Shown one piece after another: positions 16,512 through 32,000 of a stretch of 32,000 nt of DNA; positions within the stretch are counted from its first letter, which is position 1; each line of letters starts with the position of its first letter. A program made the translations under genes and the position numbers. The DNA is from Bdellovibrionales bacterium CG12_big_fil_rev_8_21_14_0_65_38_15 (GTDB taxonomy: Bacteria > Bdellovibrionota > Bacteriovoracia > Bacteriovoracales > Bacteriovoracaceae), in assembly GCA_002787775.1 (NCBI GenBank), contig PCUW01000067.1:28948-60947 (forward strand), given 5' to 3'. The notes beneath the pieces were generated by a model. That model did no database searches. It was not told the origin of the DNA and saw only the letters and a list, made by a program, of their open reading frames with translations.

Positions 16512-16514
16512 GAG

Positions 16515-16634: not shown

Positions 16635-16636
16635 TT

Positions 16637-18055: not shown

Positions 18056-18060
18056 CGCTC

Positions 18061-18726: not shown

Positions 18727-18728
18727 AT

Positions 18729-18989
18729 TCACGCACCAAAAACACGTTTTTCAAGTCGATCTAGTCGCTTTTTAAGATCTTGATCATTGTTTTGATCGAA
18801 GTAATCGCGAACAATTTCACGAAGAAGCTGCTGGTAATTCATTCCTCGTTTAACCGCTTCCTGCTTGAGATTGTCTCGCATACTTTCTTCCAAAAAGATG
18901 GTTGTTCGAATTTTTGGTTCAAGCATTAGATCTTCGTCGACTTCAACTTTTCCGTAGCGGATAGCATTCTTTTTAGTCTTCACCTTCAA
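18729..18989 (-). CDS. Putative ribbon-helix-helix (BrnA/CopG-like) antitoxin-type protein, partner of DUF4160-1
   Basis: KIRTTIFLEESMRDNLKQEAVKRGMNYQQLLREIVRDYF resembles RHH antitoxins. Has a 17-nt overlap with the upstream DUF4160 gene. Confidence 0.45.
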   Translation of the reverse strand: MKVKTKKNAIRYGKVEVDEDLMLEPKIRTTIFLEESMRDNLKQEAVKRGMNYQQLLREIVRDYFDQNNDQDLKKRLDRLEKRVFGA

Positions 18990-19251
18990 ACTCCTTCCAA
19001 GCTTGCATCAACTCTTTACGATGCTCTAAGACTTTTACTGAAAGCTTTGTTAAGGCCTTACTTGAAAAGCCAACGCTTGAAATACATTGCCCTGTTATGA
19101 TTTCAAACTTTGCATGAGCTTCACCTGCAATGACATGAACATGGGCCGGTCTGTGATCTTTTGGATAGATACAAAAGCGCACTCTGCCATAAATGATAAT
19201 CGTCGGCACACATTCTCCATACATTATATACATTTTATGAATATCAATCAA
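18973..19251 (-). CDS. DUF4160-domain protein 1. The start is ambiguous and could be the Met at 19233 or 19224.
   Basis: VPTIIIYGRVRFCIYPKDHRPAHVHV matches the DUF4160 N-terminal signature. Confidence 0.6.
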   Translation of the reverse strand: MIDIHKMYIMYGECVPTIIIYGRVRFCIYPKDHRPAHVHVIAGEAHAKFEIITGQCISSVGFSSKALTKLSVKVLEHRKELMQAWKEFEGED

Positions 19252-19341
19252 GATAGTCTTCTTAATGCACTAGATGCATGGATATGCTTGGTTCAAGGCT
19301 GTGGAAGTAATTGAAAATAAAAGACCAGTTGCAAAGCCTAT

Positions 19342-19380
19342 GCAATCTTTAAGGTCGCAATTTGCGACCTTAAAGATTGC
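19342..19380. repeat. 39-nt perfect intergenic palindrome (19-bp arms, 1-nt centre)
   Basis: GCAATCTTTAAGGTCGCAA-T-TTGCGACCTTAAAGATTGC. The core GGTCGCAATTTGCGACC is identical to the coding-sense core of the ORF6N-1 internal palindrome. Confidence 0.9.
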
Positions 19381-19391
19381 AGCTCTTCATC

Positions 19392-19440
19392 ATTCCCCTG
19401 CATCCTGCCTTCCGGATACTGCTCCCTGAATTCTGTTAGC
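19392..19440 (-). repeat. Heptamer-periodic repeat array C (7 units), 2 nt downstream of the 19443 gene stop
   Basis: ATTCCCC TGCATCC TGCCTTC CGGATAC TGCTCCC TGAATTC TGTTAGC, then TCACGCAC (19443-19450), which supplies the stop codon. Confidence 0.7.
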
Positions 19441-19442
19441 CG

Positions 19443-19919
19443 TCACGCACATTTCAGCTGAATATCTGCGCCTAAGATGACGAGCAGCTCTAGCATTTTA
19501 TCCATTGTCTTCTTTGTGTTAGTGGGATCGAGTAGTCTTGCAAGCTGAGAGGGTGAAGTTCTAAGTCTTTTGCAGATTTCATTTTTAGAGAGTTGCGTCG
19601 ACTTCAATTTATTAAGGGCGACATTAGTCATCTCAAAGAGAAACATTTTCTTGAGGTAATCCGGATTTCGATTGTAATCAAGAAATGCATCGAAAGGAAT
19701 GGAATCAACCTCGCCATTTTTAAGCATATACGTCACAGCCTCACTAGCGAGCTCCTGATCGACGAAAATCTCAATAACAGGGTTTTGCCGAGTTGGTTTA
19801 GTCGTAAGCTTTGCAAATGGGATGTTATAGACCTCCCCCTTCACCTCAATGGTAATTTTCTTGGCATAATTATTCACATTAACGGACTTAATTGTGATGT
19901 TGTTTTTTGAGTTCATCAA
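19443..19919 (-). CDS. Two-domain protein with a DUF2442-like N-terminus and a C-terminal XRE-type HTH, partner of DUF4160-2
   Basis: N-terminus ITIKSVNVNNYAKKITIEVKGEVYNIPFAKL. C-terminus LSKNEICKRLRTSPSQLARLLDPTNTKKTMDKMLELLVILG. Overlaps the upstream DUF4160 gene by about 30 nt. Confidence 0.5.
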   Translation of the reverse strand: MMNSKNNITIKSVNVNNYAKKITIEVKGEVYNIPFAKLTTKPTRQNPVIEIFVDQELASEAVTYMLKNGEVDSIPFDAFLDYNRNPDYLKKMFLFEMTNVALNKLKSTQLSKNEICKRLRTSPSQLARLLDPTNTKKTMDKMLELLVILGADIQLKCA

Positions 19920-20136
19920 AGCATCCTTCTATTTCAAGTTGATCAATGATTCGAAGTAATTTCTTCGACATTTGACCTTCTATCGCAACCTTAAGATTGA
20001 TCGCCCACTTGCAAACCATTCGTCCGTCTCGATAAATGTGGATATGGACTGGAGCATGATCATATAAGTACCAAACAATGATGTATCCAGCTCTCTTCAC
20101 CCTACCCAAGATCGACCCCCTTATGTTACCACACAT
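19888..20136 (-). CDS. DUF4160-domain protein 2. The start is uncertain and could be an internal GTG.
   Basis: GYIIVWYLYDHAPVHIHIYRDGRMV matches the DUF4160 signature. Confidence 0.55.
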   Translation of the reverse strand: MCGNIRGSILGRVKRAGYIIVWYLYDHAPVHIHIYRDGRMVCKWAINLKVAIEGQMSKKLLRIIDQLEIEGCFDELKKQHHN

Positions 20137-20146
20137 GGTAACATAA
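20121..20146. promoter_or_regulatory. 26-nt inverted repeat enclosing the annotated start codon of DUF4160-2. Candidate operator or translation-control hairpin.
   Basis: TTATGTTACCA-CACA-TGGTAACATAA, perfect 11-bp arms. The ATG complement lies at 20134-20136. Confidence 0.45.
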
Positions 20147-20274
20147 ATCCAATTTGATATCTTGGTTGTGCTTATTGCAAGGTTGTGCCGTTAAGCTAGC
20201 GAGTTAATTGCTTGAAATAAGAAGGAATAAAAAGGTGTCGATGCTAAAAAATCATAACGCTATTTTGAAACTGT

Positions 20275-20323
20275 GTGCCCCTGGATCCTGAATACCGTAT
20301 ACGGCATACTGAATACTGAAAAA
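20275..20323 (-). repeat. Heptamer-periodic repeat array D (7 units), 14 nt downstream of the ORF6N-2 stop
   Basis: GTGCCCC TGGATCC TGAATAC CGTATAC GGCATAC TGAATAC TGAAAAA, then TCACGCAC at 20328-20335. Confidence 0.7.
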
Positions 20324-20337
20324 AGAATCACGCACCC

Positions 20338-20862
20338 CTAACCTTTTTTGATTCCTATCTTGCTGCGCTTGCCTGGTAAGACTGGTGTTATCTTTTCATC
20401 AAGATCGTCGAGTCGCTCAAAGACAATTTTAAAAAGATGATTTGAGCCAACTTCAAGCTTATCCATGCGCTGTTTAAGGTCATTCTCAAGTAAAAGAAAG
20501 CTTCGAAGTTTGGTAAAGATTCGCATGATGGCGATGTTTACTTGAACCGCTTGTTCAGAGTTAAGCACGCTTGAAAGCATGGCCACGCCGTTTTCAGTGA
20601 ACACCATCGGAGCATATCGCGTCCCTCCATGCTCTAAACTTGAGGTGCCAAATTGGTACCTCAAGTTTGTAACCTCTTGATTATTCAGCTCAAACATAAA
20701 GTCCTCTGGAAACCTGGAGAGATTGCGTCGCACAGCTCTTTTAAGAAGCTTATTTTCCACTCCATAGAGTCGAGCCAAATCCGAATCGAGCATCACCCTC
20801 TGACCACGAATCACGTAGATCATATTCTCAATTTGTGAAATTAACTTTAGTTGATCGCTCAT
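20338..20862 (-). CDS. ORF6N-domain (KilA-N-related) DNA-binding protein, paralog 2
   Basis: MSDQLKLISQIENMIYVIRGQRVMLDSDLARLYGV is colinear with paralog 1. Start set at the internal Met, which has a GGAGG RBS. The first ~40 nt are nearly identical to paralog 1. The ORF track extends to 20883. Confidence 0.75.
   Translation of the reverse strand: MSDQLKLISQIENMIYVIRGQRVMLDSDLARLYGVENKLLKRAVRRNLSRFPEDFMFELNNQEVTNLRYQFGTSSLEHGGTRYAPMVFTENGVAMLSSVLNSEQAVQVNIAIMRIFTKLRSFLLLENDLKQRMDKLEVGSNHLFKIVFERLDDLDEKITPVLPGKRSKIGIKKG
20636..20668. repeat. 33-nt near-perfect palindrome inside ORF6N-2 coding sequence
   Basis: AAACTTGAGGTGCCAA-A-TTGGTACCTCAAGTTT. 16-bp arms with 1 mismatch. Sits at the position homologous to the paralog-1 palindrome. 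Confidence 0.8.
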
Positions 20863-20932
20863 ACACACCTCCGCTTTTACCAAGCAAGCTCATGAGCAAT
20901 TCAATAGATTGTAAGCGTATGAAGTTAGTGGA

Positions 20933-20963
20933 CCAAAAACAAAGCACATTTAAAAATGTGTGC
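20933..20963 (-). terminator. Weak candidate intrinsic terminator after the four-helix-bundle gene and array E
   Basis: Minus strand reads GCACACATTTTTAAATGTGC (5-6 bp stem) followed by TTTGTTTTTGG. The stem is short. Confidence 0.3.
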
Positions 20964-21001
20964 CCCTGAATACTGAATCCTGCATCCCGTATACTGAAAA
21001 A
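20960..21001 (-). repeat. Heptamer-periodic repeat array E (6 units), 7 nt downstream of the four-helix-bundle gene stop
   Basis: GTGCCCC TGAATAC TGAATCC TGCATCC CGTATAC TGAAAAA. Shares the TGTGTGCCCCTG prefix and TACTGAAAAA suffix with array D. Confidence 0.7.
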
Positions 21002-21008
21002 GCCCCCG

Positions 21009-21335
21009 TCAGGAGGCCTTAACCAGCTTATAAGAATGAGCGCAAACACTGTCACAAAGACGAATAAGTTCTTCGTCTACAGTCTTGGCCAAGAATAAAC
21101 AAGCTTGCACTTCTTTAGCTGAAGCATAGGCGTAGTTATACATTCTGCGCTTATCAAGTCTCGTTCTTCTAGCATTACCTTCAACCAGGTTTAAGACCAC
21201 TGAAGAGCTAGCACGGCGAAGCTGGTCTTTTAAGTAATAAGGAAGCTTTAGTTTGATGATCTGGTTGTAGAGAAGATCAGCGAGATGCAAGGTGCGAAAG
21301 TTTGAGTCAGTTTGTTTAGATGATTTTTGAAACAT
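21009..21335 (-). CDS. Four-helix-bundle protein (23S rRNA intervening-sequence protein family)
   Basis: LRRASSSVVLNLVEGNARRT...YAYASAKEVQACL pattern is typical of this family, recognised from memory. Confidence 0.65.
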   Translation of the reverse strand: MFQKSSKQTDSNFRTLHLADLLYNQIIKLKLPYYLKDQLRRASSSVVLNLVEGNARRTRLDKRRMYNYAYASAKEVQACLFLAKTVDEELIRLCDSVCAHSYKLVKAS

Positions 21336-21341
21336 GGTGTT

Positions 21342-21408
21342 CTCCTTTTTGAAATTTTTCCTTCACCATAAGTGAGGGAAAATTTCAAAAAGGAGAGCTG
21401 TTTTTTTT
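21342..21408. other. Long hairpin (about 24-bp stem) that includes the SD of the four-helix-bundle gene and is followed by T8 on the plus strand
   Basis: CTCCTTTTTGAAATTTTTCCTTCAC-CATAA-GTGAGGGAAAATTTCAAAAAGGAG (21342-21395; one bulge and one G:T). TTTTTTTT lies at 21401-21408. Confidence 0.6.
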
Positions 21409-21442
21409 ATGTCTACCAAAGCCTGCACCTCAATGAAAGAGA

Positions 21443-21922
21443 TCACTGACCTAAGCGAGACTTCAATCGCGTTATAAACCTTTCGGCTCGGCCTGAGCCT
21501 GAAGCTTCATTTAGTATTATTGAACTATCATCGTACCTTGAAGATTTGGTAAGCATTTGATCTTTTTTGTACTCATCCACAAATTTATCAATATCTGCAC
21601 TAGTTTTCATTTTAGGAAAAATGTCTAAGTATTCTGGAGTAGAAACGAGTTCGGTTAAATAAGTTCCTATTCCTTTATCTGATTTATAAGCCGCACCTAA
21701 TTCAAACGGAACCCACATCGAACCTTCTGTATTTCTGGAGAATACAACTATAACATGACTGCACTTACTAAGATTGTTCATAATGTGCTTGGTGATATCA
21801 AACGCAGTCTTCGTTGATGGATCAAGGACATCTAGATAATAGTCTACACATTTAGATTGAAGTAGTGCTGCTAAATTCTTTGCTTTATATTCATCTGTTT
21901 TTCGGTGTGAAATAAAAATCAT
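21443..21922 (-). CDS. TIR-domain protein (stand-alone, TIR_2-like)
   Basis: MIFISHRKTDEYKAKNLAALL...VIVVFSRNTEGSMWVPFELGAAY, with a candidate catalytic Glu in FELG. A GAGGAAG SD overlaps the caspase stop. Confidence 0.7.
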   Translation of the reverse strand: MIFISHRKTDEYKAKNLAALLQSKCVDYYLDVLDPSTKTAFDITKHIMNNLSKCSHVIVVFSRNTEGSMWVPFELGAAYKSDKGIGTYLTELVSTPEYLDIFPKMKTSADIDKFVDEYKKDQMLTKSSRYDDSSIILNEASGSGRAERFITRLKSRLGQ

Positions 21923-21930
21923 AACTTCCT

Positions 21931-22890
21931 CTAAATTTTGTTAGCGTTTACTAAATGCCAGTAAAATTTTCCTAAAGCTGTTAGCTGACACGATTTACTT
22001 TCAATACAGGCCCAATAGAGATCAGGATCAGGTTCTCTATTCACTTTTATAAGACCAACTGTTTGTAATTTTTTGAGAATCTTAAACTTCTCTACATTCT
22101 CTACCTTTGCCTTTCTGTCAGTGTGCTCGTAGCTAGGATCTAGACTAAAAATGTGATCCGGATTGGTAAAAAGCATTTTAAGAGATAACAACTTTGAAAC
22201 ATCAACTTTTTGACCAGCTTGTCTAAGTGGAGTTGAACGAGATACGAAAGACTTAAATAGGGGTCTCTGTTCCCATGCCCCAAAGCTTTGTTCTACATGA
22301 GAGTAAATTCCCGATGGAGTTACAACACCCAACAAATCAGAAGCACTTCCTGAAAGAGCATCACAAACTAGAGAAGTGAAAATACCAGAACCGTTTACCT
22401 CAATCGCACTTTCGCTATCTCTACTAGCCGTTAAAATTGATACTCCTTCTCGAATTGAAACTGCATTGTTACCTAAAGTTGGAATTTGTCCAAAGGTTCC
22501 GCTTTGGCAACAATCTAAAACCACGACGATCTCTTTAACCTGCGAGGCTATAATATGGTTAAGAATATCCTGCATAGGCACGCCTTCATTATATTTCTCA
22601 GCATCTGATGCACAAAGGTACCCACCTAAATTTGTAGCTGTTCCGTGACCAGAAAAATATAAAAAGGCCATATCCGCAGGTTGAGCAAAAAGTTCTTCAA
22701 TTACTTTCTTCAATTCCTTACACGAAATATTTTGCCCATTTTCTGCCGTTAAAATCTTAGCATCAAAGTTCTTTGAACCGTCTGAATTCCTTGAGATCAA
22801 TGCTTCAATATGTTTTGCATCGTTTGCGCAACCATTTAAGTTACTTACATGGACATATTCATTTATACCGATAACCAGAGCCCGCTTCAT
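21931..22890 (-). CDS. Caspase-like (peptidase C14) protease with a ~110-aa C-terminal extension
   Basis: RALVIGINEY, catalytic His in LYFSGHG, catalytic Cys in VLDCCQSG. Start set at the internal Met, whose ATG overlaps the upstream TAA (TAATG). The ORF track extends to 22962. Confidence 0.85.
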   Translation of the reverse strand: MKRALVIGINEYVHVSNLNGCANDAKHIEALISRNSDGSKNFDAKILTAENGQNISCKELKKVIEELFAQPADMAFLYFSGHGTATNLGGYLCASDAEKYNEGVPMQDILNHIIASQVKEIVVVLDCCQSGTFGQIPTLGNNAVSIREGVSILTASRDSESAIEVNGSGIFTSLVCDALSGSASDLLGVVTPSGIYSHVEQSFGAWEQRPLFKSFVSRSTPLRQAGQKVDVSKLLSLKMLFTNPDHIFSLDPSYEHTDRKAKVENVEKFKILKKLQTVGLIKVNREPDPDLYWACIESKSCQLTALGKFYWHLVNANKI

Positions 22891-23309
22891 TAGTATGACC
22901 TCGACCGCATAGTTGGCCTCATTACAATATTTATCGCAGAAGTAATGCTCTCCCAATTCCAAGAAATCACCATGTTTCGAGGCAATCCCGTAGGTAAAGG
23001 TGTTCTTGTATTGGCTCCATCAACATATACTCCAAATACAGGTATATTATGTGCCGCTGCAAATCGTATCTCTTTAATTACACCTTTGGCGTAAGCTGTC
23101 TGCCTTCCAACTAGTACTATCATTAGGTTACACCGACTGATCTTTTCGGCAATTTTTCTTTCCCAAATAGATTGAGGAAGTGCCTCTTTTGAAGACCAAT
23201 CTGCAATATTAAAAGGTGTTCGACTGTTTTTTGCCTGACCAGAAAAAAGCAACTTATGGTTGGAATTATTATCAAAATCAAAACTAATAAAAGTTCTTGG
23301 AGTGCTCAT
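22890..23309 (-). CDS. ThsB-type TIR-like protein (DUF1863 / MTH538 TIR-like family)
   Basis: TFISFDFDNNSNHKLLFSGQAKNSRTPFNIADWS...CNLMIVLVGRQTAYAKGVIKEIRFA...PVFGVYV pattern. Confidence 0.7.
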   Translation of the reverse strand: MSTPRTFISFDFDNNSNHKLLFSGQAKNSRTPFNIADWSSKEALPQSIWERKIAEKISRCNLMIVLVGRQTAYAKGVIKEIRFAAAHNIPVFGVYVDGANTRTPLPTGLPRNMVISWNWESITSAINIVMRPTMRSRSY

Positions 23310-23318
23310 TTTGTATCC

Positions 23319-23516
23319 TTAGTTTTTATCTTTTGGTGGGCACGGATCGTTCCCATAACTGTTTTTTTCACTAATTTGTCCATTCGATTTATGAATGACG
23401 TGCTCAGTTTCAAAGCGCTTCGCTTTTGTACGATGAGTAGAAATTGTCACCCCACCTTGTTTGTTGACCCAACTATTACTATTCGGAACTGTATGAACTG
23501 GTTTTTTACCTGGCAT
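23319..23516 (-). CDS. DUF2188-family small protein (shortened)
   Basis: VHTVPNSNSWVNKQGG...VIHKSNGQISEKNSYGNDPCPPKDKN matches the DUF2188 C-terminal signature. AAGGAG RBS lies 8 nt upstream. Confidence 0.6.
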   Translation of the reverse strand: MPGKKPVHTVPNSNSWVNKQGGVTISTHRTKAKRFETEHVIHKSNGQISEKNSYGNDPCPPKDKN

Positions 23517-23539
23517 ATAGCATTCTCCTTTATATTATT

Positions 23540-23565
23540 CTGGTTAAATTAATCAGATTAACCAG
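23540..23565. promoter_or_regulatory. Nested inverted repeat just upstream of the DUF2188 RBS. Candidate operator of the TIR-caspase operon.
   Basis: CTGGTTAA-N10-TTAACCAG, containing the inner palindrome TTAATCAGATTAA (minus-strand reading TTAATCTGATTAA). Confidence 0.3.
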
Positions 23566-23570
23566 GGTTT

Positions 23571-23601
23571 AATAAAAAAACCGCATAAACACGGCTTATG
23601 C
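23571..23601 (-). terminator. Candidate intrinsic terminator ending the hsdMSR-GHKL-STAS transcription unit
   Basis: Minus strand reads GCATAA-GCCGTGT-TTATGC, then GG TTTTTTT ATT. The stem is short (6 bp) and AT-rich. Confidence 0.45.
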
Positions 23602-23648
23602 TTGAATGATATGTCAACATTCTCCTTAAGTCAAATTTTTTAAGCAGA

Positions 23649-24209
23649 TTATTTTACTGATGAAAACAGATATTCGAGTCCGCCGCTTTCGGCTGTTTCT
23701 TTAGAGCCAATTAAGAGACCTTGATTTAGAAGTTTTTTCAGCTTTCCACTTGCATTTGGGGCAGAGAGACCAAATTTCTCTGCAATCATAGAAGTCGTTA
23801 CATTTTCTCTACTCATAATATAACTGAAAATCTTCTGCGCATCTGAACTAAGCTCTGGACCAATGACTCTATAATCTTTACCACTTAGTACCAATAACGG
23901 TTGGTCCTTGAATCGTGCAGCATAATCCCAGTTATCTATCATATCGTCATTTGCAAAGTCTTTTAAATAAAAACTAATCTCCCCTCGCTTCTCTCTCGCT
24001 AATGAGATAACGCTTTCTCTTGGAAAAGAGGCATCAGTTCGTTTAATTCCTTTTAAAGAGATACCAATAACTTTAGCCTGTGGGTATTTCCCAATCTCTT
24101 TTTTTAGCTTTGCATGAACTGCCTGACCTTGATCATTTCCATAGGGCGAGTCATCTCTAACTAAATCATATAGAGAAATTATTATTTTTTTCTGGTTCAT
24201 TAGCTTCAT
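23649..24209 (-). CDS. STAS-like (DUF4325) domain protein with a C-terminal winged-helix
   Basis: AKVIGISLKGIKRTDASFPRESVISL resembles the DUF4325/anti-sigma-antagonist-like core. The C-terminus TTSMIAEKFGLSAPNASGKLKKLLNQGLLI resembles a wHTH. Start set at the Met 4 nt after the ATPase stop; 24200 is also possible. The ORF track extends to 24248. Confidence 0.5.
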   Translation of the reverse strand: MKLMNQKKIIISLYDLVRDDSPYGNDQGQAVHAKLKKEIGKYPQAKVIGISLKGIKRTDASFPRESVISLAREKRGEISFYLKDFANDDMIDNWDYAARFKDQPLLVLSGKDYRVIGPELSSDAQKIFSYIMSRENVTTSMIAEKFGLSAPNASGKLKKLLNQGLLIGSKETAESGGLEYLFSSVK

Positions 24210-24213
24210 TGAA

Positions 24214-25311
24214 TCAGGTTGAGTCTGATGCGTCAATATCAAAATCAAAACAGATATGTGTTCCTGAAATTTCTACAAGGTTAGGTAACATTTTAACTGG
24301 TAACAACTCTCCATTTTTAAAAATAAACTCTAAACTGAAATTATTCTGTCGAACAGAATACTTCGCATTAAATTTCAAAGCCTTTTCTTTACTGCTTTTA
24401 AATCCTAACCCGTGTCCAGATTTAGTTCCAAATCTTGTGATCCGGCCTTCACTCATTGCCTTTTTTACTAATTCAATATCTGAAAGCTCTAAAAGCTTTG
24501 GATAGAATTTTTTCAGAACAGGTCTCAATGTTGTTGCGATACCGACCCCATTGTCGGAAACGGTTGTTTGAATATGTGGAGGGCTACTTTTTGTTTTTCC
24601 TTTATATCTTTGAAGAGCTGCAAAACCCTTTAGTGAAGATCCACTGTGTTCTTTTATATTGCCAATTAGCTCAGATAATATTGTAAAAGCCGGATCTTCA
24701 TAATTATCGCTTGATAATGAAATAAATGTATCTGTAAGATGTCTAACTAGCTTCTTATTATCTGTCTCTGGATCAACTTCTCCGAACTCTACAAGATTTC
24801 CACTTTTGCCTTTATACGTTTTAGCAGATGATATTTTTGGGCGTTTAGGGAGAACATTTACTTTATCACTCAAATGATCAAAGAAACCGGCTCGATTCCA
24901 ATATGCTTTGGAGCTATTATTACTAGATAGGTCAATTGTAACTTCTTTCTTGCTTAGTACTAATTGATTGCATAGTGCCAAGAATCGAGCAATTGCTTCA
25001 AGCATAAACTTGCAATTTTCAGGAACAACAAACCGAATCTTATCAATTGTGTGGATGTCTTCTATCTCTATAGAAAGAGCCTCTTCAAATAAAAAACAAG
25101 TAACCCAACAATTATCAAATTTAACTACAATTTCTTCTGGCATTAATACCCACTCGAAATTTTCATTTTGATGAAACTCGACATCTTTGTGCTTGTGCAT
25201 AAGTGCGCTGACATCGCTTCGATCGAAACCTAGTTTTCTCGCAATAGCCCTAGCCTTTAAAGGACCTTCATCTTCAAGAAGTTTTTTTATCTGCTTTAGA
25301 GTTTTATCCAT
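24214..25311 (-). CDS. GHKL (histidine-kinase-like) ATPase with an N-terminal winged-helix. No sensor, DHp or phospho-acceptor His domain recognised.
   Basis: N-terminus LKARAIARKLGFDRSDVSALMHK (wHTH). N-box ELIGNIKEH, G1 VSDNGVGI, G2 KSGHGLGF. Confidence 0.7.
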   Translation of the reverse strand: MDKTLKQIKKLLEDEGPLKARAIARKLGFDRSDVSALMHKHKDVEFHQNENFEWVLMPEEIVVKFDNCWVTCFLFEEALSIEIEDIHTIDKIRFVVPENCKFMLEAIARFLALCNQLVLSKKEVTIDLSSNNSSKAYWNRAGFFDHLSDKVNVLPKRPKISSAKTYKGKSGNLVEFGEVDPETDNKKLVRHLTDTFISLSSDNYEDPAFTILSELIGNIKEHSGSSLKGFAALQRYKGKTKSSPPHIQTTVSDNGVGIATTLRPVLKKFYPKLLELSDIELVKKAMSEGRITRFGTKSGHGLGFKSSKEKALKFNAKYSVRQNNFSLEFIFKNGELLPVKMLPNLVEISGTHICFDFDIDASDST

Positions 25312-25345
25312 TAAGTGTCATTTCTCTTCACTACCATTCATTTCA

Positions 25346-28300
25346 TTATTTCCCACTGCCACTTCCCTTAACCAACATATCAAAAACAATTTTAGCGAAG
25401 TTCTTGGCCTTATTTGGATCTGACAGAACCTGCATCATAAGATTTTGATGAGCTTCGCTGCTTCCCATAATGGCGTCGTCGACAGCTTTGGGGAAATCCC
25501 CTAGCATAGCCTGCTCTGGTGAGTTATTGGCAATTTGATCCATGACCTTCGAATTTTCTCTGACTTTATCTCTGATAGTAGTGGCATAATTAACCAGATC
25601 TTTTTCAGTAAGCTCATCAGTAACAAAAAGCTCATTTAAACGCTGAATAATTTGAGAGAGAAACTCTTCTTTGCGATCTTTGGCTTTAGCTGTGCCAAGA
25701 CCCTCTCCTGGAGTTAAGCCAGCACCCTCTTCAGAATTTTTCAACATCAAGTTTTGTTGACGAATTTTTGAAAGTCTATAATGACTGAGAACTATGCCAC
25801 TTAGGTCGACATGATCTTCATCGAGAATTGACTCTCTAAGCATTGGACGCAAGTTTCTAGCAAACAGGCTCAGTTTTTCAAGCTCCTTATCATCGTAATC
25901 TACGATTTGGGACATAAATTCGTAGTATCTGACAAAGGTACCTAAGTCTTTCTTGAAAATTTCTAGAGCATCCTTCGCCTCTTTAGCTTCTTTAAAACTA
26001 TTTTCAGCATTAGCAATTAAAACTTCATCCCCAGACTTCTTAGCTCGCTCAAACAATTCTCTTGTCTCTTTATAAGTATCAAGCGCCAGGTTATACCGTC
26101 CTTTCCAGCGCTCGACTGCAGGCTTACATATATTTGCGATTGCCGCTGCACTTTTACTTTTTTGGAAAAAAGCTTCGACAAATTGCTCTACCTCTCGCCA
26201 TTCATAAATTCTTGAACCATTGAGTTTCTCGAATAGATCATAGATCAGGTTTGGATCAGAGACATCCGTAAGTGACGCTGTCTTGTAGTAAACTTGAAAG
26301 GCGCTCAGGACTTCTTCAGGTTCATTGAAGAAATCTAAGACAAAGGTTCCTGACTCTGCCTTACCGGGATATGTTCGATTTAGGCGCGAAAGAGTCTGCA
26401 CACACTCCAAACCGCCCAATTTTTTATCAACATACATCGCACATAGCTTTGGTTGATCAAACCCAGTTTGAAACTTGTTTGCCACCAACATCACCTGATA
26501 ATCTTCTGAGTCAAAGGCTTTACGCATATCTCGGCCTTTTAAACCTGGGTTCATGTTCGTTTCAGTAAACTTTTCACCAAGTAAGCCATCAACATTGGGA
26601 TCGCTTTCACTAAAAGTCACTTCACCAGAAAATGCTACCATGGCACAAATATGTGAATAGCCTTTATCAACAATATATTTATCAAAAGCCAGCTTATAGC
26701 GAACAGCTTCTTTTCTAGAGCTAGTCACCACCATGGCTTTTGCTTGACCATTCAATAAGCTCATCACATTGTCTTTAAAGTGCTCGACAATAACCATAAC
26801 CTTTTGAGAGATATTATACTCATGTAAGCGCACCCACTGATTAAGCTTCACTTTTGCTTTTTTACTCTCTACTTCTTGATCTGCTGCACCCAGTTTTTGC
26901 GCTAAATTATAGGCAACCTTATAGTTAGTGTAGTTTTTCAACACATCGAGAATGAAACCCTCTTCAATTGCCTGTCGCATACTATAAACATGATAGGCTT
27001 CTGGCTTGTTTTCTAACGAAGTTGGTTCTGCAGGATTTGGTAAGCGGCCAAAAAGTTCGAGTGTTTTTGACTTAGGTGTTGCTGTAAATGCAAAGTAACT
27101 GAGATTTTTTGTCGCTCTTCGAGATTCAACAGCGGCATCCAAAATATCCTCTGCTGAGAGTTCTTCATCCTCATCAATTGATTCAAAACTTAATACTTCT
27201 TTCAATTTACGAGCAGTTGAACCAGTCTGTGATGAGTGTGCCTCATCCGCTATAATGGCATAGTGCCTATCTTTCAAATTTACGCTGTTTTCAATAGCTT
27301 TGATTACAAATGGAAAAGTCTGAATGGTCACAATAATAATCGGCTGTGAAGTCTCTAGCGCTGCTGCCAGTTTTTCAGATTTAGAACCCTCACCCTCTTT
27401 CCTGTTAATTCGGCCGATGATGCCATCAGTGTGCTCTAATTGATAAATAGTGTCTTGCAACTGGTCATCAAGAACTGTTCTGTCTGTGACAATAATCACT
27501 GAGTTAAAAATTTTGTCGCCACTGCCATCATATAATGCCGATAATTGGTGGGCGAGCCACGCAATCGAATTGGACTTCCCCGAGCCTGCACTATGTTGGA
27601 TGAGATACTTTTGACCTGGACCTTCTAAGCGAGCAGCAGAAATAAGCTTCGTCACTACATTCCATTGATGATATCGAGGAAAAATCATGGATTCTTTTTT
27701 ATATTTTCGTCCATCATAGTCTTCTTTTTCAGTAATTTCTAAATGCATAAACCTAGAAAGAATTTTTAAAAGGTTATCGGGCAGTAAAACTTCATTCCAA
27801 AGGTAGTCAGTAGCGTATTGATTAACATCTTCAGGCACTTCATTGCCAGATCCACCGTCTTTAGTACCTTTGTTGAAAGGTAAGAAATAAGTCTCGTCAC
27901 CCTCCAATCTAGTCGCCATATAAACTTCATACTGACTGACTGCAAAGTGAACCAAAGCTCCTCGTTTAAAAGTTAGTAGTGGTTCTGTTTTTTTAGTTTC
28001 CGGGTCTTTTGAAAAACGGGTTGTCTTATACTGCTTAATAGCATTTTCAACTGACTGTTTAAACTCGGACTTAAGTTCAAGTGTCACTACCGGCAGACCA
28101 TTAACAAATAAAACTAAGTCAATTCGCCACTTCTTAGCTCTAACTCCAGTTTCAGCTAGATGCTCATCAGTTGCCCAAGGACTATAAACTAATTCGGGTA
28201 CGACTCGCAGAATGTTTTTTTTATATCTACCAATCGTGCCTGGGTTTAATTCATGATCGGGTTTAAATTGGCAAAGGCTAAATTTTGTTCCACGATCTTT

Positions 28301-28618
28301 AATTCCGTGACGAAGAACACCCAGTGTGCCAAAGGTGCGCATTTCTTTATTGGCAGCATTTGGATCGGCCTTTTCTAATTGTGAAGATACACGCTCTAAA
28401 AACTTTTTATCAGTATCACTAGGGTAGATCTTACTAAACTTCTGCCACTGCTCATCTTGGGTGTTTTTAACAAAAGTTAGAAGATCTTCGGAATATAAGG
28501 CTAGCTTACAATCATACTTTTCTGGATTACCGAGTTGCCAACCATTAGCAAGCATTTGCCCAATTATATCGTTTTGAAATACAAACTCTCTGGACTTATC
28601 TCCCCCGTAGTAATTCAT
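25346..28618 (-). CDS. hsdR: Type I restriction endonuclease subunit R
   Basis: PD-(D/E)xK region RIDLVLFVNGLPVVTLELK. Helicase motif I HSAGSGKS and motif II IADEAHSSQ. 1090 aa. ATGA overlap with hsdS. Confidence 0.95.
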   Translation of the reverse strand: MNYYGGDKSREFVFQNDIIGQMLANGWQLGNPEKYDCKLALYSEDLLTFVKNTQDEQWQKFSKIYPSDTDKKFLERVSSQLEKADPNAANKEMRTFGTLGVLRHGIKDRGTKFSLCQFKPDHELNPGTIGRYKKNILRVVPELVYSPWATDEHLAETGVRAKKWRIDLVLFVNGLPVVTLELKSEFKQSVENAIKQYKTTRFSKDPETKKTEPLLTFKRGALVHFAVSQYEVYMATRLEGDETYFLPFNKGTKDGGSGNEVPEDVNQYATDYLWNEVLLPDNLLKILSRFMHLEITEKEDYDGRKYKKESMIFPRYHQWNVVTKLISAARLEGPGQKYLIQHSAGSGKSNSIAWLAHQLSALYDGSGDKIFNSVIIVTDRTVLDDQLQDTIYQLEHTDGIIGRINRKEGEGSKSEKLAAALETSQPIIIVTIQTFPFVIKAIENSVNLKDRHYAIIADEAHSSQTGSTARKLKEVLSFESIDEDEELSAEDILDAAVESRRATKNLSYFAFTATPKSKTLELFGRLPNPAEPTSLENKPEAYHVYSMRQAIEEGFILDVLKNYTNYKVAYNLAQKLGAADQEVESKKAKVKLNQWVRLHEYNISQKVMVIVEHFKDNVMSLLNGQAKAMVVTSSRKEAVRYKLAFDKYIVDKGYSHICAMVAFSGEVTFSESDPNVDGLLGEKFTETNMNPGLKGRDMRKAFDSEDYQVMLVANKFQTGFDQPKLCAMYVDKKLGGLECVQTLSRLNRTYPGKAESGTFVLDFFNEPEEVLSAFQVYYKTASLTDVSDPNLIYDLFEKLNGSRIYEWREVEQFVEAFFQKSKSAAAIANICKPAVERWKGRYNLALDTYKETRELFERAKKSGDEVLIANAENSFKEAKEAKDALEIFKKDLGTFVRYYEFMSQIVDYDDKELEKLSLFARNLRPMLRESILDEDHVDLSGIVLSHYRLSKIRQQNLMLKNSEEGAGLTPGEGLGTAKAKDRKEEFLSQIIQRLNELFVTDELTEKDLVNYATTIRDKVRENSKVMDQIANNSPEQAMLGDFPKAVDDAIMGSSEAHQNLMMQVLSDPNKAKNFAKIVFDMLVKGSGSGK

Positions 28619-29922
28619 GCTGTGACTTCCTCAGTGGTTCGGGTTATTTTTTGTGCAGTCGTTTGTTTTGGTGGTTGCCAATCGCATACGTCGATTTTTC
28701 CAGTGACGGCGGCGGAGATGAGAGCCTCGCGCCGCTCTTTGAACAATTCGATTAATGACGCAGCCTTGTCTATCAAACTATTAATTTTGGGGATTTCATT
28801 TAGTAAATAGTTCGCAATATTTTTTTGTTCTTCAGTATCTATAACAGGTAGGTCAATCTGAGAAAAATTTGCGAATCGTAATGCCTGACCATCACGAACT
28901 AAATTTGTAGTACTTTGCAGTGCTTGAATATAAGGTCCACTTTTGAACAGATACTTAAAGTAATCTACATAAACTGAACTTGCTGGTACTAATGGAACAT
29001 AGGCTGAACTTACTGCACCTCTGACTGCACTAAACTCAATACCTCCCTGAAAACTTCGCATACTAATGACAAAATCATTTGGCTCAACAAGCTTCAAAAT
29101 ATCGTGTCCAACTTGAACTCTCACTACTTTTTGACCTTCAAGTTCCATGAATTTTTTTTGAGGGATTATTCCATGTTTCTGAGAGGCCGTTAACATTTCT
29201 TCACCAATATTTGCTCTTAGTTTTCTCTCCGCAAATAACCACTTACTATTTATTAGCCCCCAATGCTTCGGCACCTCTCCCAGCCACTCAACACCTGAAT
29301 CTTTCATCGGAGCATCAGGATCTAATCCTTTAGTCACGGCATGGCTGATCACGGCTTGACGTTTTTCTTTTAGTAATTTTATGAGATTTTGTTGCTTTTC
29401 TATTAATTCGTCGATTTTTGCGGTTTCGTAATCAAGAAACTCAATAATTTTCTTCTGAGTTACAGCGTTCGGCAAAGAAAGTTCAAAGTTTAAAAACTGT
29501 GGCAGCCTTAAAGAATCTACGGTAGACTTCGCATTGCCTTCAAGGGCCACTTTATAAAAATTACTAGATAAGTAATAATATACAAATTTTCCTAAAACCA
29601 ATGTGAAATTATTCAGCATATAAACTCGCTGATGGTAGTCGAACTTTCCAATATAATAATGAAAGACCTTGCCAACCCCGACTCCATCGCCCGCAGTTAA
29701 GACAGCTTCGCAATCTTCTCCAACTGAATCAATTCTTTCTACGTTTTGTGAACGAACAAAGAAAGGATATTGACCATCATCTATTGCATTTTCAGTATCC
29801 CTAGAACCTGTTTTTACCTTACAGATAAATTTTAATTTTTTTATTAACCATTGAGTTGGTATCTGTCCCAGCCACTCAACGCCACTGTCCTTATATTCTT
29901 CATAAGCCTTGTATTTTCCCAT
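28615..29922 (-). CDS. hsdS: Type I R-M specificity subunit S (two target-recognition domains)
   Basis: Duplicated GVEWLG(Q/E)(I/V)P..W entry motifs. Two conserved helical spacers (IDELIEKQQNLIKLLKEKRQAVISHAVTKGLD and INSLIDKAASLIELFKERREALISAAVTGKIDV). Confidence 0.9.
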   Translation of the reverse strand: MGKYKAYEEYKDSGVEWLGQIPTQWLIKKLKFICKVKTGSRDTENAIDDGQYPFFVRSQNVERIDSVGEDCEAVLTAGDGVGVGKVFHYYIGKFDYHQRVYMLNNFTLVLGKFVYYYLSSNFYKVALEGNAKSTVDSLRLPQFLNFELSLPNAVTQKKIIEFLDYETAKIDELIEKQQNLIKLLKEKRQAVISHAVTKGLDPDAPMKDSGVEWLGEVPKHWGLINSKWLFAERKLRANIGEEMLTASQKHGIIPQKKFMELEGQKVVRVQVGHDILKLVEPNDFVISMRSFQGGIEFSAVRGAVSSAYVPLVPASSVYVDYFKYLFKSGPYIQALQSTTNLVRDGQALRFANFSQIDLPVIDTEEQKNIANYLLNEIPKINSLIDKAASLIELFKERREALISAAVTGKIDVCDWQPPKQTTAQKITRTTEEVTA

Positions 29923-32000
29923 TACGCATTTAACTCCTGAAGCATTCCCAAGATTTGATTACTAACTTTGAACAAGTCAGCGTCAATTTCGGCTAGGTCA
30001 CGTGGTCGTCTATAAATATAAAAATGACGATTAAATGGAATCTCATAGCCAACGATGCCGATCTCACCGTCACTCTTATCAACTTTACTTGCATCAATCC
30101 AGGCATCTGGTACATGTGGAAGAACCTCATTCTTGAAGTAAGCTTCGTTGATGTCATTAACTTTTCTTGAAGGATCAAGCGCGATGTTTTCAAAATCTCG
30201 AAGCTCTCCATCCGCTTTATATTCAACAATTTCGCCATTCACTTCAAACAGGCCATAAAGCGGCTTAGCTTTACCTTTATGAATCTTCTTAATTACTTTT
30301 TCAGCATCTGGATTCTTCCAGCTAACGGCATTAGTTATTTGTTTTTTCTCTTTTGCTTCAAGTTTTACTTTCGATTTCTTTATCATCTCTTCAAAACGAT
30401 TCATATCATCATGCTGATCTTTGCCAATTACTTTTTGCAGAGCCTTTGCTTGATTAAGAATTTGTCTTTGCTCAAGCCAGATTTTTTTGTCTAAAACATC
30501 TTTAACATGCTTTTCTTTAAGTTCCGTGAAATGAGTTTTAATATACTTACGAATACTATCGACATGTTCTTTAAGGACGCCATAATCCTTATCTGTCCAT
30601 TTTTCTCCATATTCTTTATAAACCCACTTCATAACTTCATTAAGCGGCTTAGGTGCAAACCTTAACTCTTCAATTCTTTCATCACTAAACTGATATGATT
30701 CTCTTAAGGGTCTCTCTATTGTGAGTCTGCGATAACCGAACTCATGAGTTTCGAATATTTTACTAGAAAAAGTTTTTTCGTCTTCTGCTTTTGGATTCGC
30801 TGATTGACGTCCGCGACTGCTTTTTTGATCTTGTGGCTTATCAAGGACTTGAGTTTTGACTTCTTCAAACTCTCCAAAGCATTTTGTAATGATTCTAATA
30901 TCATCATCACTCATCTCATGTCTCTTTGAGCCTAAAGACTTTCGCATCTTGCTATATAGATTCACTCCATTGATCAGTTGAACTTTACCTTTACGCTCCT
31001 TAACTTTTTTATTGGAGAGCACCCAAACATAAGTAGCAATGCCAGTGTTGTAAAACATATCAGTTGGCAAAGCGACAATCGCCTCCAAAAGATCAGCCTC
31101 CAGAATATAACGTCTGATCTCTGACTCCCCTGAGCCTGCACCACCTGTAAACAATGGAGATCCGTTTAGAATAATTCCGATTCGGGCACCGCCTTCTTTG
31201 GCGTCTCTGAGCTTACTAATTAGATGGAGTAAAAATAAAAGAGAACCATCAGAAACACGCGGCAAGCCTGGGCCAAAGCGCCCATTGAATCCTTTAGATT
31301 TATGTTCCTTAATAATCTGTTCATCGATCTTCTTCCAATCAACACCAAATGGTGGATTGGAAAGCATATAATCAAATTTTTCTGAGTAAAGGTGATCCGA
31401 AGATAATGTATTACCGTGTTTAATATTACTAACATCTTGCCCTTTGATCAGCATGTCTGCCTTACAGATCGCGTAACTTTCAGGGTTGAGTTCTTGGCCG
31501 AAGGCTCGCATTACAGCTTTTGGGTTCAGCTCATGCACGTACTCCATACCTGAAGAGAGAAAGCCGCCTGTTCCGGCCGTTGGGTCATAAATAGTTCGGA
31601 TCACTCCTGGCTTTGTCAGAACTTCATCATCTTCCATAAAAACCAAGGAAGTGGTCAGTCGAACAATGTCTCTAGGAGTAAAGTGCTCTCCAGCAGTTTC
31701 ATTTGAACTCTCTGCAAATTTTCGGATAAGCTCCTCAAACACTAAGCCCATTTCGTGGTTAGAGACCATCTTGGGACTCAAGTCCATTTGCTGAACCTTT
31801 TGAACAACTTTATATAGCAAATTGGCATCATCCAGCTGACCAATAAACTCTGCAAAGTTAAAATACTCAAAGATCTCTCTAGCATCTTTTGAGAAGTCTT
31901 GAATATAGGACTCAAGATTGTCCTTAATATCCTTTTCCCCGAGTTTTGAGAGATCCATTTTTGATTTATTGAAAAACGACAAGCCATCTGTAGCACGCAA
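29922..32000 (-). CDS. hsdM: Type I R-M N6-adenine DNA methyltransferase subunit M (large form). The 5' end lies beyond the window.
   Basis: Motif [12 protein letters not shown] and motif IV LSNPPFG. TAATG overlap with hsdS. The ORF is open at the window edge. Confidence 0.95.

What the first reader, a model, noticed from the sequence alone, without database searches (positions are those of the whole stretch)
23649..25311. wHTH-GHKL ATPase plus STAS-like(DUF4325)-wHTH pair appended to the type I R-M operon
Seen directly in the sequence:
- Thirty-four nt after the hsdR stop, on the same strand, lies a GHKL ATPase. It has an N-box ELIGNIKEH, G1 DNGVGI and G2 GHGLGF, plus an N-terminal winged-helix, but no recognisable DHp/His-phosphoacceptor or sensor domain.
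- Four nt after its stop begins a protein with a STAS/anti-sigma-antagonist-like DUF4325 core and its own C-terminal wHTH.
- The first terminator-like structure downstream of hsdM is at 23571-23601. hsdM-hsdS-hsdR-GHKL-STAS therefore looks like one five-gene unit.

Established knowledge:
- GHKL/STAS pairs work as partner-switch modules (SpoIIAB/SpoIIAA, RsbW/RsbV).
- Type I R-M loci are known to host back-up abortive-infection effectors, for example PrrC.

Inference: this could be an R-M-linked sensing or regulatory partner-switch, or a stand-alone two-gene defence module. I know of no characterised function for this pairing.
Basis: partly seen in the sequence, partly recalled or inferred. Interest (0 to 1): 0.7.

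Follow-up and report, generated by a model that had tools for sequence, protein, structure and literature searches.

The report
CapK/CapS damage-sensing switch for Thoeris
The two genes are CapK and CapS, a kinase-repressor pair described in 2026 that turns on a neighbouring immune operon when DNA damage produces single-stranded DNA; the find is real but already explained.

Summary
A 365-aa GHKL protein (24214-25311, minus strand) starts 34 nt after hsdR. A 186-aa protein with a C-terminal winged helix (23649-24209) follows 4 nt later, and a hairpin plus T-run closes the unit.

The pair is not uncharacterised. It is CapK/CapS (Chambers et al., EMBO J 2026, PMC13373217).
- The CapS profile hits the CapS crystal structures at E=7e-77 and 4e-62.
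- CapK is 38% identical over its full length to the tested E. roggenkampii CapK.
- Every residue the paper tested or singled out is present: CapS S61, N152, K158, G176-G177; CapK N218, W69, K237, K239.

The likely target is the operon downstream, not the R-M system upstream. Two exact TTAA-N10-TTAA CapS-type operators flank the hairpin between capS and a DUF2188-TIR-caspase-TIR operon, which has the type IV Thoeris architecture. The paper's dataset already lists R-M, then capKS, then type IV Thoeris (9 of 12 cases).

The DUF4325 label failed, and the downstream link was missed.

Small additions, not mentioned in the parts of the paper I read:
- a second conserved operator with an embedded promoter at the capS stop codon;
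- a conserved small-ORF slot, filled here by DUF2188;
- very tight hsdR-capK spacing that recurs across species.

Novelty is low.

The parts
24214..25311 (-). capK: HTH-STAS-GHKL serine kinase (365 aa)
   Evidence: Pfam HATPase_c. It is 38% identical over 364 aa (E=2e-78) to the E. roggenkampii CapK taken from the paper's reporter file. N218, W69, K237 and K239 are conserved. The AlphaFold2 model has pLDDT 92 and Foldseek gives GHKL folds.
23649..24209 (-). capS: STAS-wHTH repressor (186 aa; the conserved start is probably ATG 24200)
   Evidence: The profile hits PDB 9z72/9z73 at E=7e-77 and 9z71 at E=4e-62. Identity is 46% and 39%. S61, N152 and G176-G177 are invariant, and K158 is nearly invariant, in 60 homologues.
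23626..23643 (.). Operator site A: TTAAAAAATTTGACTTAA (TTAA-N10-TTAA), 6 nt after the capS stop. It overlaps the -35 of a promoter-like site (TTGACT 23634-23629, 17-nt spacer, TATCAT 23611-23606).
   Evidence: A site with at most one mismatch sits at this position in 50 of 74 loci, against 0.02 expected. A TAnnnT -10 lies 16-18 nt downstream in most of them.
23574..23601 (-). Terminator-like hairpin (8-bp stem, 3-nt loop) plus T-run, lying between the two operators
   Evidence: -7.9 kcal/mol, z = -2.15. A comparable hairpin plus T-run is present in 44 of 74 related loci.
23540..23565 (.). Operator site B: CTGGTTAA-N10-TTAACCAG (core 23544-23561). It also contains TTAATTTAA. It corresponds to the paper's 'wide palindrome' in promoter #2.
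   Evidence: The site is present in 67 of 74 loci, against 0.04 expected. It matches the paper's own 100-sequence alignment.
23319..23516 (-). DUF2188 small ORF (65 aa), the first gene after operator B
   Evidence: Pfam DUF2188, E=5e-7. It occupies the same slot in L001, L006 and L081-L087, whichever effector system follows.
22890..23309 (-). ThsB-like TIR protein (139 aa)
   Evidence: Pfam ThsB_TIR, E=6e-10, and PADLOC ThsB.
21931..22890 (-). Caspase-like protease (319 aa from ATG 22890), with about 115 aa of C-terminal sequence beyond the Peptidase_C14 match
   Evidence: Peptidase_C14, E=5e-19. The start codon overlaps the TIR stop codon by 1 nt. The gene call in the near-identical locus L081 is also 319 aa.
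21443..21922 (-). Second TIR protein (159 aa)
   Evidence: TIR_2, E=1e-10. A TIR gene follows the caspase gene in L001, L079, L085, L086 and L087 as well.
25346..28618 (-). hsdR (context: the gene whose stop lies 34 nt before capK)
   Evidence: HSDR_N, SWI2_SNF2 and ResIII and PADLOC REase_I.
28615..29922 (-). hsdS (context)
   Evidence: Methylase_S and PADLOC Specificity_I, E=8e-105.
29922..32000 (-). hsdM, truncated by the window end (context)
   Evidence: N6_Mtase and HsdM_N. The full-length gene is 763 aa in the near-identical locus L081.

Best explanation
The pair is CapK/CapS, a DNA-damage-responsive transcriptional switch for the adjacent downstream immune operon.

**Steps taken from the published E. 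roggenkampii and V. cholerae homologues**
- CapS dimers bind TTAA-N10-TTAA operators and repress transcription.
- Single-stranded DNA made during DNA repair binds a groove between the STAS and GHKL domains of CapK and activates the kinase.
- CapK then phosphorylates one serine on the CapS STAS domain.
- Phosphorylation breaks the CapS dimer, releases it from DNA and de-represses the downstream operon.

**Steps inferred for this locus**
1. capK and capS have no promoter-like site of their own, so they are transcribed by read-through from hsdMSR.
2. The hairpin at 23574-23601 stops that transcript and insulates the downstream operon.
3. CapS sits on site A (23626-23643) and site B (23544-23561) and keeps the DUF2188-TIR-caspase-TIR operon low. 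That operon has the architecture of type IV Thoeris, an abortive-infection system.
4. When ssDNA accumulates, CapK phosphorylates CapS on S61 and the operon is induced. Phage DNA cut by the type I enzyme and then resected is one possible source of that ssDNA.
For: **Family identity**
- The CapS profile hits CapS crystal structures at E=7e-77 and 4e-62. Identity to them is 46% and 39%.
- CapK is 38% identical over 364 aa to the tested CapK.
- The phospho-acceptor serine (S54 in E. roggenkampii) is S61 here. The DNA-contact residues N145, K151 and G169-170 are N152, K158 and G176-177 here. The kinase residue N218 and the ssDNA residues W68, K237 and K239 are N218, W69, K237 and K239 here.
- capS follows capK in every surveyed locus that has enough sequence.

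**Operators**
- Two of the four exact TTAA-N10-TTAA matches in the 32-kb window lie within the roughly 130-nt capS-DUF2188 spacer.
- Across 74 loci, 44 have an exact site within 320 nt after capS, against 0.9% of background windows.
- Allowing one mismatch, site A is present in 50 of 74 loci and site B in 67 of 74, against 0.02 and 0.04 expected.
- Site B matches the paper's own operator alignment.

**Context**
- A same-strand operon follows capS in most of the loci surveyed. It is CBASS-type (YdjM, SAVED, HNH), Bub or TIR-caspase.
- The TIR-caspase cassette follows capKS in L001, L007, L079, L085, L086 and L087, with an R-M system upstream in L079, L085 and L087, none adjacent in L001, and AbiE upstream in L086.
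- Dataset EV2 lists 12 capKS loci followed by type IV Thoeris, 9 of them with an upstream R-M system.
Against: - Nothing was measured for this locus. CapS binding, CapK activation and inducibility are all inferred by homology at 38-46% identity.
- The narrow palindrome (TTAA-N-TTAA) that the paper finds upstream of capS, and that supports autoregulation there, is absent. The capK-capS spacer is only 4-13 nt.
- The promoter-like site inside operator A is followed almost at once by the hairpin, so it is unclear which promoter drives the operon.
- The TIR and caspase genes were not compared with the experimentally validated type IV Thoeris proteins. Only the architecture and the Pfam domains match.
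- The extra TIR gene and the DUF2188 gene are not part of the published two-gene system.
Confidence: 0.85

Rival explanations
1. Restriction-to-Thoeris relay. This is an extension of the main model rather than a true rival. The tight fusion of capKS to hsdR would be functional: DNA cut by this type I enzyme and then resected is the physiological source of the ssDNA that activates CapK. A failing first line of defence would then switch on the abortive TIR-caspase system.
For: - hsdR-capK gaps are 6-45 nt in many species and involve at least three HsdR sub-types.
- HsdR is the upstream neighbour in 22 of 70 species.
- 9 of the 12 type IV Thoeris-linked capKS loci in Dataset EV2 have an upstream R-M system.
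- The paper's discussion proposes this coordination.
- WYL-domain repressors respond to restricted phage infection through ssDNA (bioRxiv 10.1101/2025.11.13.688357).
Against: - The same capKS-DUF2188-TIR-caspase-TIR cassette occurs with no adjacent R-M system upstream (L001, Bdellovibrio) and with AbiE upstream instead (L086).
- Most Bub-linked capKS loci listed in the part of Dataset EV2 that I read lack an R-M system.
- In the paper, mitomycin C acting through UvrA/UvrB is enough to activate the switch, so restriction is not required.
Confidence: 0.35
2. One reading: the pair is a partner switch that regulates or senses the upstream type I R-M system itself, controlling hsd expression or HsdR activity.
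For: - The pair is on the same strand as hsdR, 34 nt away, with no terminator in between.
- The association with R-M systems recurs.
Against: - Both CapS-type operators lie downstream of capS.
- No operator is found upstream of capK, either here or in relatives.
- In the near-identical locus L081, the only other exact match lies at the 3' end of an HTH gene, 18 nt before hsdM. It lacks the CTG/CAG flanks of the conserved operators and sits in an A/T-rich stretch.
- The upstream neighbour is not an R-M gene in most loci.
- The published mechanism acts on the downstream promoter.
Confidence: 0.05
3. One reading: a stand-alone two-gene defence or toxin-antitoxin module, comparable to VapKSC or to PrrC-type back-up effectors embedded in R-M loci.
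For: [quoted passage not shown]
- The genes lie in a defence island.
Against: - Neither protein has an effector or toxin domain, and no PIN/VapC gene is adjacent.
- VapS has a short C-terminal region in place of the wHTH. Here the wHTH and its DNA-contact residues are conserved.
- No PADLOC model hits CapK.
Confidence: 0.03

Closest known systems
CapK/CapS of Enterobacter roggenkampii and Vibrio cholerae (Chambers et al., EMBO J 2026; PDB 9Z71, 9Z72, 9Z73)
   Same: - The domain architectures match: HTH-STAS-GHKL for CapK and STAS-wHTH for CapS.
- Homology is full-length, at 38% for CapK and 39-46% for CapS.
- All residues the paper tested or singled out are conserved.
- capS directly follows capK.
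- A wide TTAA-N10-TTAA operator lies before a same-strand immune operon.
- An upstream R-M system and a downstream type IV Thoeris system are both listed in the paper's dataset.
   Different: - There is no narrow palindrome or promoter between capK and capS, because the spacer is only 4-13 nt.
- Two wide palindromes flank a terminator-like hairpin.
- The first regulated gene is a DUF2188 small ORF.
- The host is an uncultured marine bacterium, and nothing was tested experimentally.
VapKSC toxin-antitoxin system (same paper)
   Same: A CapK-like kinase activated by ssDNA phosphorylates a STAS-domain partner.
   Different: VapS lacks the wHTH and inhibits a VapC PIN nuclease. There is no PIN gene here, and CapS keeps its DNA-binding domain.
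SpoIIAB/SpoIIAA and RsbW/RsbV anti-sigma partner switches
   Same: A GHKL serine kinase phosphorylates a conserved serine on a STAS-domain partner. The N, G1 and G2 boxes are similar.
   Different: - No sigma factor is sequestered.
- The STAS protein is itself the DNA-binding repressor.
- The kinase carries additional HTH and STAS domains.
- The kinase is switched on by ssDNA rather than by partner exchange.
CapW/BrxR (WYL) and CapH/CapP regulators of CBASS, BREX and Bub operons
   Same: They have the same job and the same signal: they repress an adjacent immune operon and release it when ssDNA appears.
   Different: The proteins and chemistry are unrelated. Those systems work by ligand-induced release or by proteolysis of the repressor, not by phosphorylation.
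Type IV Thoeris (TIR plus caspase-like protease; Rousset et al., bioRxiv 10.1101/2024.10.24.620036)
   Same: The downstream operon has a short ThsB-like TIR gene translationally coupled to a caspase-like protease that carries extra C-terminal sequence.
   Different: This locus has a second TIR gene after the caspase gene and a DUF2188 gene before the first TIR. Similarity to the validated proteins was not tested.

Membership tests
CapK | Full-length homology to an experimentally studied CapK | tested here: met
   BLASTP against the E. roggenkampii CapK from the paper's reporter file gives 38% identity over 364 aa, E=2e-78. Identity is 43% to the CapK encoded next to a CapS that is identical to the V. 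cholerae crystal construct apart from its S58A mutation (loci L027, L030, L035).
CapK | HTH-STAS-GHKL architecture with a kinase-active Bergerat fold | tested here: inconclusive
   The GHKL domain is supported by Pfam HATPase_c and by Foldseek hits to GyrB, ParE and MutL. The N-terminal wHTH gives weak Z-alpha-like hits. The middle alpha/beta domain (about residues 55-200) was modelled with high confidence, but no search of mine independently assigned it to STAS.
CapK | Catalytic Asn (N218), ssDNA-stacking Trp (W68) and the basic pair K237/K239 | tested here: met
   N218, W69, K237 and K239 align exactly. N218 and W69 are invariant in 60 homologues.
CapK | Kinase activity switched on by about 20 nt of ssDNA | not testable with these tools
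   This is biochemistry only. It was shown for the E. roggenkampii protein.
CapS | Homology to the CapS crystal structures (STAS plus wHTH) | tested here: met
   The profile scores E=7e-77 against 9z72/9z73 and E=4e-62 against 9z71, over the full length.
CapS | Conserved phospho-acceptor serine on the STAS domain | tested here: met
   S61 in TDAS61FPRES aligns with S54 of E. roggenkampii and S58 of V. cholerae. It is invariant in 60 homologues.
CapS | wHTH DNA-contact residues N145, K151 and G169-G170 | tested here: met
   These are N152, K158 and G176-G177 here. The Asn and both Gly are invariant, and the Lys is nearly invariant.
CapS | Wide TTAA-N10-TTAA operator between capS and the downstream operon | tested here: met
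   Two exact sites lie at 23626-23643 and 23544-23561. The second matches the paper's logo alignment. Enrichment across 74 loci is shown.
CapS | Narrow TTAA-N-TTAA operator in a capK-capS intergenic promoter (autoregulation) | tested here: not met
   There is no match upstream of capS. The spacer is 4-13 nt. The site is present at position -13 in most of the 29 related loci (of 74) that carry an exact match upstream of capS. It is not universal in the family, so this does not exclude membership.
Type IV Thoeris (downstream operon) | [quoted passage not shown] | tested here: met
   ThsB_TIR and Peptidase_C14 are both present. The stop and start codons overlap, and about 115 aa follow the C14 match.
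Type IV Thoeris (downstream operon) | Sequence relationship to the validated Pseudomonas sp. 1-7 or E. coli 328 proteins, and N7-cADPR signalling | not tested
   Those sequences were not to hand, and NCBIfam and PADLOC hold no type IV-specific model.
Pfam DUF4325 (PF14213) | A match to the family HMM | tested here: not met
   There is no hit at E<=10 for the window protein. The family is not among the 25 most-matched families listed for the 60 CapS or the 60 CapK homologues at E<=1.
VapKSC | An adjacent VapC/PIN toxin, and a VapS that lacks the wHTH | tested here: not met
   No PIN domain occurs in the neighbouring genes. The wHTH is present in CapS.
SpoIIAB/RsbW-type anti-sigma partner switch | The kinase also sequesters a cognate sigma factor encoded in the operon | tested here: not met
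   No sigma-factor gene lies in the locus. The system works like the kinase-STAS half of such a switch only.

The most novel reading that the evidence does not exclude
The published picture of the CapKS control region may be incomplete. I suggest the conserved module has five parts:
1. capK and capS;
2. a second wide operator at the capS stop codon, with an embedded sigma-70-type promoter (-35 TTG inside the palindrome and a TAnnnT -10 element 16-18 nt downstream);
3. an insulating terminator;
4. the known operator B;
5. a small first ORF. This is DUF2188 in this clade and a 57-aa 'MATNPPxGDGHRNGAV' protein in about 45 of 73 other loci.

The small ORF would be a third functional component of the switch. 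In loci fused to hsdR, restriction of phage DNA would be the natural trigger.
Probability: 0.25. Interest if true: 0.45.

Novelty: already known. Interest (0 to 1): 0.2.

Why it matters
This locus adds no new kind of system. It is a member of the CapK/CapS family in an arrangement already catalogued: an R-M system, then capKS, then type IV Thoeris.

Its value is confirmatory. The residues and operators defined in enterobacterial and Vibrio proteins are conserved at 38-46% identity in a distant marine lineage. Very tight hsdR-capK spacing recurs with several HsdR sub-types, which supports the idea that first-line restriction and second-line abortive infection are wired together.

The second operator with its promoter, the hairpin and the small-ORF slot are cheap to test and would refine the published model.

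Tried and rejected
- **PADLOC v2.** It gave nothing for CapK and only HTH-type hits for CapS. The library predates the description of the family.
- **NCBIfam.** No informative hit.
- **DUF4325.** Tested three ways and rejected.
- **Foldseek of the whole-chain models.** It returned only generic GHKL hits for CapK and wHTH hits for CapS. It did not return STAS proteins or the CapS structures. The CapS entries were probably released after that library's April 2026 cut-off.
- **Rfam on 21000-26000.** Nothing reached a gathering score.
- **A CapS operator upstream of capK or hsdM.**
  - None was found upstream of capK, here or in seven relatives.
  - The single exact TTAA-N10-TTAA before hsdM in L081 lacks the conserved flanks and lies in A/T-rich sequence. 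I treat it as chance.
- **Homology between the DUF2188 ORF and the 57-aa 'MATNPP' ORF that fills the same slot elsewhere.** hhalign gave a probability of 0.2%, so I rejected it.
- **PrrC-like back-up effector and VapKSC-like toxin-antitoxin readings.** Both were rejected because no effector domain is present.
Full report
**1. What is in the sequence**

All relevant genes lie on the minus strand.

| Feature | Coordinates |
|---|---|
| hsdM (runs off the window end) | 29922 to beyond 32000 |
| hsdS | 28615-29922 |
| hsdR | 25346-28618 |
| 34-nt gap | |
| 365-aa ORF (GHKL) | 24214-25311 |
| 4-nt gap | |
| 186-aa ORF | 23649-24209 |
| about 130-nt spacer | |
| DUF2188 ORF | 23319-23516 |
| ThsB-like TIR | 22890-23309 |
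| caspase-like protease | 21931-22890 |
| second TIR | 21443-21922 |

- Pfam HATPase_c just passes its cut-off, at 27.6 bits against 26.4.
- The hairpin plus T-run is found at 23601-23583 and onwards. It folds at -7.9 kcal/mol with z = -2.15.
- DUF4325 is the one label that fails. It gives no hit at E<=10. It is also not among the 25 most-matched families listed for the 60 homologues of either protein.

**2. Identification**

A profile of 60 homologues of the second protein hits three PDB entries over the full length: 9Z72 and 9Z73 at E=7e-77, and 9Z71 at E=4e-62.

A full-text search for the entry code leads to Chambers et al., EMBO J 2026 (PMC13373217). That paper names the pair CapK (HTH-STAS-GHKL kinase) and CapS (STAS-wHTH repressor). 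It shows the following:
- CapS dimers bind TTAA palindromes and repress their own promoter and the promoter of the downstream immune operon.
- ssDNA produced during DNA repair activates CapK.
- CapK phosphorylates CapS on S54.
- Phosphorylation dissociates the CapS dimer and de-represses transcription.

Direct comparisons tie the window proteins to the studied ones.
- Window CapS is 46% identical to V. cholerae CapS and 39% identical to E. roggenkampii CapS.
- Window CapK is 38% identical over 364 residues (E=2e-78) to the E. roggenkampii CapK, whose sequence I took from the paper's reporter GenBank file.

Every residue the paper tested or singled out is conserved.

| Protein | Role | Published residue | Window residue |
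|---|---|---|---|
| CapS | phospho-acceptor | S54 | S61 |
| CapS | DNA contacts | N145, K151, G169-170 | N152, K158, G176-177 |
| CapK | kinase active site | N218 | N218 |
| CapK | ssDNA binding | W68, K237, K239 | W69, K237, K239 |

AlphaFold2 models of both proteins are confident, with pLDDT 92.0 and 92.6. Foldseek gives a GHKL fold for CapK and a wHTH for CapS.

**3. The target is downstream**

The 32-kb window has four exact TTAA-N10-TTAA matches. Two of them lie in the capS-DUF2188 spacer.
- **Site A** (23626-23643) starts 6 nt after the capS stop codon. It overlaps the -35 hexamer of the best promoter-like site in the region, TTGACT-17-TATCAT.
- **Site B** (23544-23561) extends to the palindrome CTGGTTAA-N10-TTAACCAG. 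It lies 27 nt before the start codon of the DUF2188 ORF.
- The hairpin lies between the two sites.

I surveyed 80 loci, one per GTDB species, that encode a CapK relative.
- capS follows capK wherever enough sequence is available.
- An exact wide palindrome lies within 320 nt after capS in 44 of 74 loci, against 0.9% of background windows.
- Allowing one mismatch, site A is present in 50 of 74 loci and site B in 67 of 74, against 0.02 and 0.04 expected. A terminator-like hairpin lies between them in 44 of 74.
- Site B is the 'wide palindrome' of the paper's own 100-sequence alignment.

Gene context points the same way.
- The genes after capS are on the same strand. They encode CBASS-type proteins (YdjM, SAVED, HNH), Bub proteins (DUF6791, Multi_ubiq, E2, ThiF, JAB, DUF6527) or TIR plus caspase.
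- The upstream neighbour varies. It is HsdR in 22 of 70 loci. Elsewhere it is another R-M gene, an unrelated gene or a divergently oriented gene.
- No operator is seen upstream of capK.

**4. The R-M link**

No promoter-like site lies on the coding strand between 25312 and 26000. No convincing terminator precedes the one after capS.

Tight hsdR-capK spacing recurs in many species.
- The gaps are 6-45 nt.
- Different HsdR sub-types are involved: T1R_D3-like, EcoR124_C and EcoEI_R_C.

The link is not obligatory. The same capKS-DUF2188-TIR-caspase-TIR cassette has AbiE upstream in L086 and no adjacent R-M system in Bdellovibrio (L001). The closest CapS relative (78% identity, L083) has no R-M system and has a Bub operon downstream.

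The paper counts 88 of 443 capKS loci directly downstream of an R-M system. Its Dataset EV2 lists 12 loci linked to type IV Thoeris, 9 of them with an upstream R-M system. The exact arrangement in this window is therefore already catalogued. The authors propose that R-M cleavage could feed the ssDNA signal. That remains untested.

**5. Differences from the published examples, and small additions**

- (a) The narrow palindrome upstream of capS is absent here, and the capK-capS spacer is only 4-13 nt. capS autoregulation as described in the paper is therefore not evident in this locus.
- (b) Site A is not mentioned in the sections of the paper I read.
  - Its consensus is TCTGnTTAAACnGCTTGnnTTAAnCAGA. 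The TTG is in the -35 position, and a TAnnnT hexamer lies 16-18 nt downstream in most loci.
  - It is also present in the E. roggenkampii reporter sequence, as TTAAACAGCTTGATTTAA overlapping the capS stop codon, followed by TATAGT.
- (c) The first gene after operator B is a highly conserved small ORF.
  - In this clade it is DUF2188, whichever effector system follows.
  - In about 45 of 73 other loci it is an unrelated 57-aa protein, 'MATNPPxGDGHRNGAV...KGVRKEK'.
  - The paper mentions only YegP in this position.
- (d) The effector cassette has a second TIR gene after the caspase gene. The published type IV Thoeris system has two genes.

**6. Verdict**

The pair is a member of a family whose mechanism, structures and genomic associations were published in June 2026. 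The likely regulated target is the downstream TIR-caspase operon, not the R-M system. Novelty is low and interest is low. The residual interest lies in the control-region details and in the untested restriction-to-Thoeris relay.

Noticed in passing
window 23626-23643, and 50-58 of 74 related loci: A second wide CapS-type palindrome sits directly at the capS stop codon. Its consensus is TCTGnTTAAACnGCTTGnnTTAAnCAGA, with a TTG in the -35 position and a TAnnnT hexamer 16-18 nt downstream. It is also present in the E. roggenkampii reporter construct. The sections of the CapKS paper that I read describe only the distal site.
   Followed up: yes
window 23319-23516; L001, L006, L081-L087: A DUF2188 small ORF is always the first gene after capS in this clade, whether Bub or TIR-caspase follows. 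The window copy has a 10-aa in-frame deletion (the ANAExEGRRQ segment) compared with seven relatives.
   Followed up: partly
L002-L070, e.g. L025:11796-11969: A 57-aa ORF, MATNPPxGDGHRNGAVxxRSQTxTPSGHxVKRDxxTGRFMDVKTSDKxPFKGVRKEK, fills the same slot after capS in about 45 of 73 loci from many genera. In a 12-sequence sample, members are 84-93% identical to the first sequence. It has no Pfam match and no detectable similarity to DUF2188.
   Followed up: partly
L025-L037 (Vibrio, Shewanella, Marinomonas, Alteromonas, Aliidiomarina, Thalassotalea, Kangiellaceae): In several of these loci (L027, L030, L033, L035, L037) CapS is about 99% identical to the V. cholerae crystal construct, and in three of them the only difference is the engineered S58A. 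Across the group, the intergenic operators shown are nearly identical. This points to a very recently mobile hsd-capKS-CBASS element.
   Followed up: no
window 21341-21396: A 22-nt-arm inverted repeat (95% complementary, 12-nt loop) lies between the last TIR gene and the 23S_rRNA_IVP gene. Its right arm covers the AAGGAGA ribosome-binding site of that next gene. It produced several sub-threshold Rfam hits.
   Followed up: partly
window 25346-25594 (HsdR residues 1002-1083): The C-terminal 80 residues of HsdR match the C-terminus of the PADLOC candidate PDC-S15 (E=4e-11).
   Followed up: no
window 24214-25311, residues 1-47: The N-terminal wHTH of CapK gives weak hits to the Z-alpha domains of PKZ (PDB 2rvc and 4kmf, E about 0.002). 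Six of 60 homologues hit Pfam z-alpha weakly. The paper found no phenotype when this domain was deleted.
   Followed up: no
window 14680-21335: The rest of the island encodes a 23S_rRNA_IVP protein, two ORF6N-domain proteins, an RNase_T-GIY-YIG fusion protein and a HipA kinase toxin. In the 99%-identical locus L081, the stretch after the IVP gene instead begins with ABC-ATPase and ankyrin genes and BrnT/BrnA.
   Followed up: no
L081:1869-1886 (upstream of hsdM, outside the window): An exact TTAA-N10-TTAA lies 18 nt before the hsdM start codon in the near-identical locus. It lacks the CTG/CAG flanks of the conserved operators and sits in A/T-rich sequence. It is probably a chance match, but I did not exclude that it is a CapS site.
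   Followed up: partly
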